Below, piece after piece: positions 5,932-6,641 of a stretch of DNA of 6,641 nt. Origin of the DNA: a virus (lineage: Duplodnaviria > Heunggongvirae > Uroviricota > Caudoviricetes); the IMG/VR virus record IMGVR_UViG_2648501338_000005, one strand, 5' to 3'. The stretch's first letter is position 1. Each line of letters opens with the position of its first letter. Both the position numbers and the translations under genes were made by a program. Under the pieces are notes generated by a model. It was not told the DNA's origin. It saw only the letters and a list, made by a program, of their open reading frames with translations, and did no database searches.

Positions 5932-6542
5932 TCAGTTCCTGTGCTGGCTGACGTTCGGACGCCAGCTCTCCCAGTTAAACGTCACCCAGCGACCTCCGTT
6001 CATGGACATGCGGTCCATCACCCGCTCGCCGAGAAGTGTATTCATCGCTGCATGATTAAGATTTGTCAGCATCCCCACACTGAGTAACGATGCCGTTCTG
6101 CGGTCAACAATCTGATTAAGCGTGACCTGCTCATTACGCGTATCCCGCTGCATGCCAATTTCATCCAGGACCAGCAAATCCACCCCGCAAAGCTCCTGTA
6201 AAAATTTTTCACCTGATTTGCCGTTGTCGTAACTGTCGTGCAACACACTCATGACATCAGACACAGTGATGATAATTACGCTGCGCCCCTTCTCCATCAG
6301 CCGATTGCCTATCGCCGCCGCCAGGTGGTTTTTTCCTGTGCCAGGCCGGCCACTGAACACAAAATTCGTACAGCCGCCTTCCAGCTCTGCCGCAATGGAT
6401 TTCGCCTGACTCAGGGCATGGCGCTGACCAGCGTTCTGCACCCGGTAGTTACAGAACGTACACTTCCGGTGAAGCGGCTGGATACCGGAGCGGTTAATGA
6501 TTTTTTCAACCCGCGTCTGATGATTCAGACGATTAACCTCCT
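5932..6542 (-). pseudogene. dnaC: dnaC-like AAA+ helicase-loader gene, 5' end truncated by IS insertion
   Basis: Translation retains Walker A (SGRPGTGKNHLAAAIG) and Walker B (DLLVLDEIG) and aligns, from memory, with E. coli DnaC from about residue 43 onward (NRSGIQPLH, ITVSDVMS, LNQIVDRR, LGERVMDRM, FNWES). The frame runs uninterrupted into the IS end at 6543 with no plausible start; the first canonical in-frame start (GTG 6441) would lack a further ~30 aa including NRSGI. Confidence 0.8.
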
Positions 6543-6641
6543 TGAACCGCCCCGGGAATCCTGGAGACTAAACTTCCTGAGAAAGAGGTAAACAGGATGA
6601 CTAAAAATACTCGTTTTTCCCCTGAAGTCCGTCAACGGGCA
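6543..6641 (+). mobile_element. left end of an IS3-family insertion sequence (IS629/IS1203-like), continues beyond window
   Basis: Sequence from TGAACCGCCCCGGGAATCCTGGAGAC onward matches my recollection of the IS629-type left inverted repeat. It is followed by an SD and ATG encoding MTKNTRFSPEVRQRA, the OrfA N-terminus of this family. Only one end is visible, so target-site duplication cannot be checked. Confidence 0.75.
6597..6641 (+). CDS. IS3-family transposase OrfA, N-terminal 15 codons (partial)
   Basis: ATG at 6597 preceded by AGAGG; translation MTKNTRFSPEVRQRA; runs off the window edge. Confidence 0.75.
   Translation, partial: MTKNTRFSPEVRQRA

What the first reader, a model, noticed from the sequence alone, without database searches (positions are those of the whole stretch)
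5932..6641. IS629-like insertion removes the 5' end of the dnaC-like gene, probably disabling the replication module
The dnaC-like frame runs straight into the IS terminal repeat at 6543 with no start codon, while the ATPase core with Walker A and B is intact. The missing N-terminal region is the part that contacts the DnaB helicase in E. coli DnaC. The prophage is therefore probably replication-defective (cryptic), or the truncated ATPase is expressed from an IS-derived promoter with altered function.
Basis: partly seen in the sequence, partly recalled or inferred. Interest (0 to 1): 0.45.

Follow-up and report, generated by a model that had tools for sequence, protein, structure and literature searches.

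The report
IS629 insertion splitting a prophage helicase-loader gene
A common E. coli jumping gene (IS629) has landed inside a prophage's DnaC-like helicase-loader gene and cut off its helicase-binding head; this is an ordinary kind of prophage damage, seen at the end of a short draft-assembly contig.

Summary
The left end of IS629 starts exactly at 6543. It is 99/99 identical to a copy that its depositors annotated as IS629.

On the minus strand, a dnaC-like reading frame (5932-6542) runs into the IS with no start codon. Everything left of the IS (1-6542) is 100% identical to E. coli C325, where the gene is uninterrupted (741 nt, 246 aa). The insertion lies between nt 130 and 131, in codon 44.

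The 43 lost residues align with E. coli DnaC residues 1-41, which hold most of the published DnaB-contact segments. The Walker A and B motifs are intact.

The window is a complete 6641-bp draft contig (JHSS01000050.1) that stops 99 nt into a multicopy IS. "Removes the 5' end" is therefore not shown. A simple insertion and an IS-linked deletion cannot be told apart, and I could not find the other junction.

The junction is real: three independent contigs carry it. It is also rare: none of 5426 complete E. coli genomes has it.

Nothing supports expression from the IS. There is an in-frame stop 8 codons inside it, no promoter-like site, and no Shine-Dalgarno sequence before the first start codon.

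The loader allele is very probably null. "Replication-defective prophage" is plausible but untested, because sibling prophages could complement it. This is ordinary and of low interest.

The parts
5932..6542 (-). 3' 611 nt (gene nt 131-741, stop included) of a prophage DnaC-like AAA+ helicase-loader gene. It encodes residues 45-246 plus two bases of codon 44.
   Evidence: 100% identical to the same part of WP_000790456.1 genes in FORC_042 and C325. Pfam IstB_IS21 64.7 bits. Collinear with E. coli DnaC 6qel_G, E 3.3e-72.
6328..6351 (-). Walker A motif GRPGTGKN (residues 108-115 of the full-length protein)
   Evidence: aligned with DnaC GKPGTGKN
6160..6180 (-). Walker B motif DLLVLDE (residues 165-171 of the full-length protein)
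   Evidence: aligned with DnaC DLLVIDE
6439..6441 (-). GTG, the first canonical start codon left in the frame. Gene callers use it for a 169-aa product (5932-6441). No Shine-Dalgarno sequence lies upstream.
6540..6542 (.). CCT (AGG on the gene strand) directly abutting the IS. Probably the left copy of the 3-bp target-site duplication. This is inferred; the second copy lies outside the contig.
   Evidence: Two other IS629 copies have 3-bp duplications: CAT in L010, and AGG/CCT in LC567824.1 as annotated.
6543..6641 (+). First 99 nt of IS629 (IS3 family), running from the left terminal inverted repeat to codon 15 of orfA. The contig ends here.
   Evidence: 99/99 identical to an annotated IS629 and to a 1310-bp copy. 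L004 continues 139 nt into the IS, also identical.
6543..6567 (+). Left terminal inverted repeat of IS629. It matches the right end of a complete copy at 23 of the first 25 positions.
6568..6570 (-). TAG stop in the dnaC frame, 8 codons inside the IS. It blocks any translational fusion from the IS into the gene fragment.
6597..6641 (+). Start of IS629 orfA (MTKNTRFSPEVRQRA), transcribed away from the dnaC fragment.
   Evidence: CDS start in L010 at the homologous position

Best explanation
An IS629 copy (1310-bp IS3-family element) transposed into codon 44 of the DnaC-like helicase-loader gene in the early-right operon of a lambdoid prophage. The insertion lies between nt 130 and 131, and the IS is oriented opposite to the gene.

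The window is a whole short-read contig. It stops 99 nt into the IS because the IS is a multicopy repeat.

The remaining 3' fragment keeps the AAA+ core. It has lost its start codon, its ribosome-binding site and the two N-terminal helices that in E. coli DnaC hold DnaB. The allele is therefore a null for helicase loading (inferred).

The prophage can then no longer load host DnaB at its own origin with its own loader. Whether it still replicates depends on help from paralogous loaders of sibling prophages or from host DnaC (inferred, not tested).
For: - Exact IS terminus at 6543, 99/99 identical to an annotated IS629.
- Identity to the uninterrupted allele ends at 6542, and window 1-6542 is 100% identical to C325.
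- The intact gene is 741 nt / 246 aa and sits directly downstream of an O-like HTH initiator gene in C325 and FORC_042.
- The gene is continuous across this point in 1395 of 5426 complete genomes.
- The same junction occurs in three other independent assemblies.
- The window equals contig JHSS01000050.1, 6641 bp.
- The lost residues align to DnaC 1-41, and DnaC residues 8-11 and 31-44 contact DnaB (PMC4705694).
- 106 of 116 homologues carry an N-terminal extension of 30 aa or more.
- There is an in-frame stop inside the IS, no Shine-Dalgarno sequence before the first start, and no outward promoter-like site.
Against: - The other IS end and the 5' gene fragment were not found, so a simple insertion is assumed rather than shown.
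- The predicted 5' fragment-IS read-through product (97 aa) is absent from the protein collection.
- No experiment bears on loader activity or on prophage replication.
- Eight of 116 distant homologues (32-40% identity) have almost no N-terminal extension. A short form is therefore not strictly impossible, though these may be partial gene calls.
Confidence: 0.8

Rival explanations
1. IS-associated deletion or rearrangement. The IS629 copy marks a breakpoint, for example an adjacent deletion or recombination between two IS629 copies. On this reading the 5' 130 nt of the loader gene, the O-like initiator and perhaps the whole immunity/integration arm are truly gone or moved. This is the literal reading of the first reader's 'removes'.
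For: - The predicted read-through product of a simple insertion was not found among 5.8 billion protein clusters.
- An N-terminal 44-aa query found only a contig-end partial of an intact gene.
- E. coli genomes hold up to 50 matches to this IS end, which gives ample substrate for recombination.
Against: - Absence of the fusion product is weak evidence. The search tool is heuristic: it did not even return the intact 246-aa protein for the N-terminal query.
- The left-junction DNA pattern is also absent from the scanned DNA collections, so their silence on the right junction says nothing.
- The junction sits at the exact IS terminus next to a CCT target like that of another IS629 copy, as expected for ordinary transposition.
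Confidence: 0.15
2. The N-terminally truncated AAA+ protein is made, from read-through or IS-borne transcription and internal initiation at GTG 6441. It would then have an altered function, such as a DnaB-independent or dominant-negative ATPase.
For: - Gene callers predict a 169-aa product from GTG 6441.
- The AAA+ motifs are intact.
- Transcription from the prophage early promoter could in principle read through the IS. Only one weak terminator-like site lies on that strand, at chance level.
Against: - There is no Shine-Dalgarno sequence upstream of GTG 6441 or GTG 6360. The next ATG (6297) lies after Walker A.
- An in-frame TAG lies inside the IS.
- No promoter-like site faces outward in the visible IS end.
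- From general knowledge of IS3-family elements, the left end carries an inward-facing -10 element, not an outward promoter.
Confidence: 0.04
3. Assembly artefact. The gene-IS join would be a chimeric contig end created by the assembler, not a real junction.
For: - The window is a short draft contig ending in a multicopy repeat.
- No complete genome carries the junction.
Against: - The same junction, to the nucleotide, is present in three other contigs. They come from different samples and, judging by contig names, from different assemblers: ENA k141_53931, an ENA metagenome scaffold and a Logan contig.
- The join falls on the exact first base of the IS.
Confidence: 0.01

Closest known systems
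IS629 (IS3 family) insertions in lambdoid prophages of enterohaemorrhagic E. coli
   Same: - Same element: 99/99 identity over the visible end.
- Same kind of host element, a lambdoid prophage of the STEC type.
- Same consequence, a disrupted phage gene. IS insertions, frameshifts and deletions are described as the usual defects of O157 Sakai lambdoid prophages (PMC2669165).
   Different: - This insertion site (nt 130/131 of this loader gene) is absent from all 5426 complete E. coli genomes searched.
- I found no paper describing it. I did not search the literature for it specifically.
E. coli DnaC helicase loader (PDB 6QEL/6QEM)
   Same: - The intact allele is 49% identical and collinear over residues 1-242, with the same Walker A and B motifs.
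- The N-terminal helices align, including W32 and R40 of DnaC.
   Different: - It is a prophage paralogue next to an O-like initiator, not the chromosomal gene.
- The copy in the window lacks the part equivalent to DnaC 1-41, so it cannot be assumed to bind DnaB.
DnaC-like helicase loader of Shigella phages 75/02 Stx and POCJ13
   Same: Same gene pair, a DnaC-like loader followed by a DUF1627 gene, at 86% nucleotide identity over window 5700-6542. The records annotate it as 'DnaC-like helicase loader'.
   Different: In those deposited phage genomes the match runs uninterrupted up to the point where the window's IS begins. Here the gene is interrupted.

Membership tests
IS629 (IS3 family insertion sequence) | Terminal sequence matching the IS629 left inverted repeat (TGAACCGCCCCGGG...) and the orfA start | tested here: met
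   99/99 identity to a depositor-annotated IS629 (LC567824.1) and to a 1310-bp copy in RM9872. orfA begins MTKNTRFSPEVRQRA at 6597.
IS629 (IS3 family insertion sequence) | Complete element: about 1310 bp, orfA/orfB with programmed -1 frameshift, matching right inverted repeat | not testable with these tools
   The contig ends 99 nt into the element. L004 extends to only 139 nt.
IS629 (IS3 family insertion sequence) | 3-bp target-site duplication flanking the element | not testable with these tools
   Only the left flank (CCT) is visible. The right-junction pattern was not found in any collection.
DnaC/IstB-type AAA+ helicase loader | AAA+ domain of the IstB/DnaC type with Walker A and Walker B motifs | tested here: met
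   Pfam PF01695 at 64.7 bits against a cut-off of 24.1. Motifs located. Aligns with DnaC 6qel_G at E 3.3e-72 for the intact allele.
DnaC/IstB-type AAA+ helicase loader | N-terminal helicase-binding region (DnaC residues 8-11 and 31-44) | tested here: not met
   Residues 1-43, which align to DnaC 1-41, are absent from the window copy. The intact allele has them (PMC4705694).
DnaC/IstB-type AAA+ helicase loader | Loads DnaB onto single-stranded DNA | not testable with these tools
   This needs biochemistry or genetics.
Lambdoid prophage replication module (initiator plus loader) | Loader gene directly downstream of an O-like initiator gene in the early-right operon | tested here: inconclusive
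   True in C325 and FORC_042, which are 100% identical up to the insertion point. There a 317-aa HTH_36 protein sits upstream, preceded by ydaT-like and cro-like genes. In the window's own genome that side lies beyond the IS and was not recovered.

The most novel reading that the evidence does not exclude
The loader gene may be a recurrent target of inactivation. The same IS629 junction sits on two different prophage backbones (window and L004). A separate sample (L007) carries a -1 frameshift only 1-2 nt from the insertion point. This could reflect a mutational or insertional hot spot, or selection to silence a prophage loader that competes for host DnaB, rather than one inherited accident.
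Probability: 0.05. Interest if true: 0.4.

Novelty: new member of a known kind. Interest (0 to 1): 0.1.

Why it matters
It matters little beyond annotation. The 169-aa 'ATP-binding protein' that gene callers report here is a pseudogene fragment and should not be treated as a short loader family.

The junction could serve as a lineage marker for the few E. coli strains that carry it.

IS629 disruption of prophage genes is a well-documented route of prophage decay in STEC. A disabled loader may lower the inducibility of this prophage, but that needs an experiment.

Tried and rejected
(1) Looking for the other IS junction and the displaced 5' fragment:
- I searched the protein collection with the predicted 97-aa read-through product. 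It returned only fusions of other genes to the IS629 antisense frame.
- I searched with the N-terminal 44 aa. It returned only a contig-end partial of an intact gene.
- Exact DNA patterns for the right junction were absent from JGI metagenomes, GTDB representative genomes and IMG/VR.
- A synthetic right-junction query matched no complete E. coli genome.
- The left junction is also absent from the three scanned collections, so those negatives are uninformative.

(2) IS-derived promoter. The consensus scan found none in the IS end on the relevant strand.

(3) Polar terminator inside IS629 on the strand read by phage early transcription. There is only one weak 5-bp-stem hit, at chance level, so no claim is made.

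(4) L007's 1-nt deletion as an IS-excision footprint. No simple excision model reproduces it, because the deleted C129 lies outside the presumed AGG duplication. I left it as an unexplained side observation.

(5) Strain or serotype of the source. Cluster names say only 'Escherichia coli'.

Full report
**What is in the sequence**

On the minus strand an open frame runs from the stop codon at 5932 up to 6543. It reads KEVNRLNHQTRVEKIINRSG...GRPGTGKN...DLLVLDE...WRPNVSQHRN. The first ATG/GTG/TTG in this frame is GTG at 6441.

From 6543 the plus strand reads TGAACCGCCCCGGGAATCCTGGAG..., followed by an ATG at 6597 that opens MTKNTRFSPEVRQRA.

**The IS**

The 99 nt at 6543-6641 are 100% identical to many copies annotated 'IS3 family transposase' in E. 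coli. They match 99/99 the start of a 1310-bp element that its depositors annotated 'IS3 family IS629, target site duplication AGG' in Stx2a phage Stx2_499. They also match the start of a 1310-bp copy in O145 strain RM9872, which has orfA/orfB, a programmed frameshift and a 3-bp duplication.

The first 25 nt are an imperfect inverted repeat of the right end, matching at 23 of 25 positions. The visible part is therefore IS629. The rest of the element cannot be seen.

**The gene and the exact break**

Window 1-6542 is 100% identical to E. coli C325 (NZ_CP124819.1), and 5700-6542 is 100% identical to FORC_042. In both, identity stops at 6542.

In both genomes the gene is uninterrupted: 741 nt, 246 aa, WP_000790456.1, annotated 'ATP-binding protein'. 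Comparing the sequences places the IS between gene nt 130 and 131, inside codon E44. The window keeps 611 nt and lacks 130 nt.

The intact protein is collinear with E. coli DnaC (6qel_G, E 3.3e-72, 49% identity). It hits Pfam IstB_IS21 above threshold.

In C325 the gene lies in a complete lambdoid prophage. The gene order is integrase, excisionase, exonuclease, dicB, LexA-family repressor, cro-like, ydaT-like, a 317-aa O-like HTH protein, this loader, DUF1627, DUF977 and so on to RusA, a DUF1133 gene, and the lysis genes.

**Is the N-terminus dispensable?**

I searched the 203-aa fragment against 1.84 billion representative proteins. Of the listed hits, 116 cover most of the fragment. In 106 of these the match starts 30 or more residues into the protein (median 51). 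Among the 26 with at least 39% identity, all but one have extensions of 35 or more. Eight distant hits have under 20 extra residues and may be partial calls.

The lost residues 1-43 align to DnaC 1-41. Hydrogen-exchange and mutant work places the DnaB contacts of DnaC at residues 8-11 and 31-44, with R40 near DnaB E435 (PMC4705694). W32 and R40 of DnaC are conserved in the intact phage protein.

**Real or artefact?**

The window is the whole of contig JHSS01000050.1 (GCA_001266095.1, 6641 bp). Contigs of short-read assemblies typically end in multicopy repeats, which explains why only 99 nt of the IS are present.

The join itself is real. Contigs from three other samples carry exactly the same junction: L004 (ENA metagenome), L005 (ENA metagenome) and L006 (Logan). 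Their flanks are 99.85-100% identical to the window. L004 extends 139 nt into the IS, all identical.

The allele is rare. None of 5426 complete E. coli genomes has the junction, while 1395 of them have the gene continuous across this point.

**What could not be settled**

The other IS end, the duplication and the 5' fragment were not found. Both a simple insertion that leaves the 5' fragment 1.3 kb away and an IS-linked deletion or rearrangement remain possible.

I favour the simple insertion. The break is at the exact IS terminus and abuts a CCT like the annotated target of another IS629 copy. This is an inference.

**Expression of the fragment**

Reading from the IS into the gene frame meets TAG at 6570-6568, and no start codon lies between that stop and the junction. 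GTG 6441 and GTG 6360 have no Shine-Dalgarno sequence. The first in-frame ATG (6297) is downstream of Walker A.

The consensus scan finds no promoter-like site on the minus strand within the IS end. The single site in 5800-6641 is inside the gene and at chance frequency. The transposase gene points away from the fragment. I therefore treat the 169-aa product that gene callers report as a pseudogene fragment.

**Consequences**

The prophage's own loader allele is very probably null. This is inferred from the loss of the start codon and of the DnaB-binding helices.

That the prophage is 'therefore cryptic' does not follow directly. In O157 Sakai many prophages with IS insertions, frameshifts or fragmented replication genes are still excised, amplified and even packaged through help from sibling prophages (PMC2669165). 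Complete E. coli genomes hold up to four matches to this loader gene.

A polar effect of the IS on the downstream early genes is possible but not supported. There is only one weak terminator-like hit, at chance level.

**Verdict**

This is a correctly read, real and ordinary IS629 disruption of a prophage gene, seen at a contig end. It is a new insertion site of a well-known kind of event. Interest is low.

Noticed in passing
L007 169-182 (Logan SRR9211925_412); equivalent to just right of window 6542: A contig from another sample has the same loader gene without the IS but lacks C129 of the gene (AAGCGAGGAGG becomes AAGGAGGAGG). This is a -1 frameshift 1-2 nt from the IS629 insertion point. 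No simple excision-footprint model fits, and a read or assembly error is not excluded.
   Followed up: partly
L004 1-4561 versus window 4267-6641: The identical dnaC::IS629 junction sits on a second prophage backbone. L004 matches the window for 2375 nt (99.9%) and then diverges into a hok-carrying region. This suggests prophage mosaic recombination after the insertion, or a repeated hit at the same site.
   Followed up: partly
window 6535-6542; L012 1601-1607: The flank of this insertion (TAACCTCCT|TGAACC) resembles the flank of the IS629 copy in ydfJ of O145 strains and Stx2a phage Stx2_499 (AACCCCT|TGAACC, duplication CCT/AGG). This is why BLAST hits run 7-8 nt past the IS end. It may reflect a target preference.
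   Followed up: no
window 1294-1856 (+): A ParD antitoxin / ParE toxin pair lies on the plus strand, embedded in the otherwise minus-strand early region of the prophage. It looks like an inserted cargo module.
   Followed up: no
window 2405-2920 (-); L002 11742-11920: RefSeq marks a short 'frameshifted' pseudogene here in C325, although the sequence is identical to the window. The other gene call gives a 171-aa product over the same stretch. The annotations disagree, but there is no sequence difference.
   Followed up: no
L002 5233-5828: In the C325 prophage that matches the window 100%, a TerB-family gene and a DUF3927 gene occupy the position between the tRNA genes and the SASA-family esterase. 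From my own knowledge of Stx phages, the stx genes sit there.
   Followed up: no
protein hits P0002-P0120: More than a thousand predicted proteins in public data are fusions of unrelated genes to the same antisense frame of the IS629 right end (...VNRPGFPGECFICELRLPDHRFRWKHNKLFLLLPEEYGPAFPAIVDCYTSPPT). Some carry misleading names such as 'outer membrane usher protein FimD'. This is a recurrent annotation artefact of IS629 insertions.
   Followed up: no
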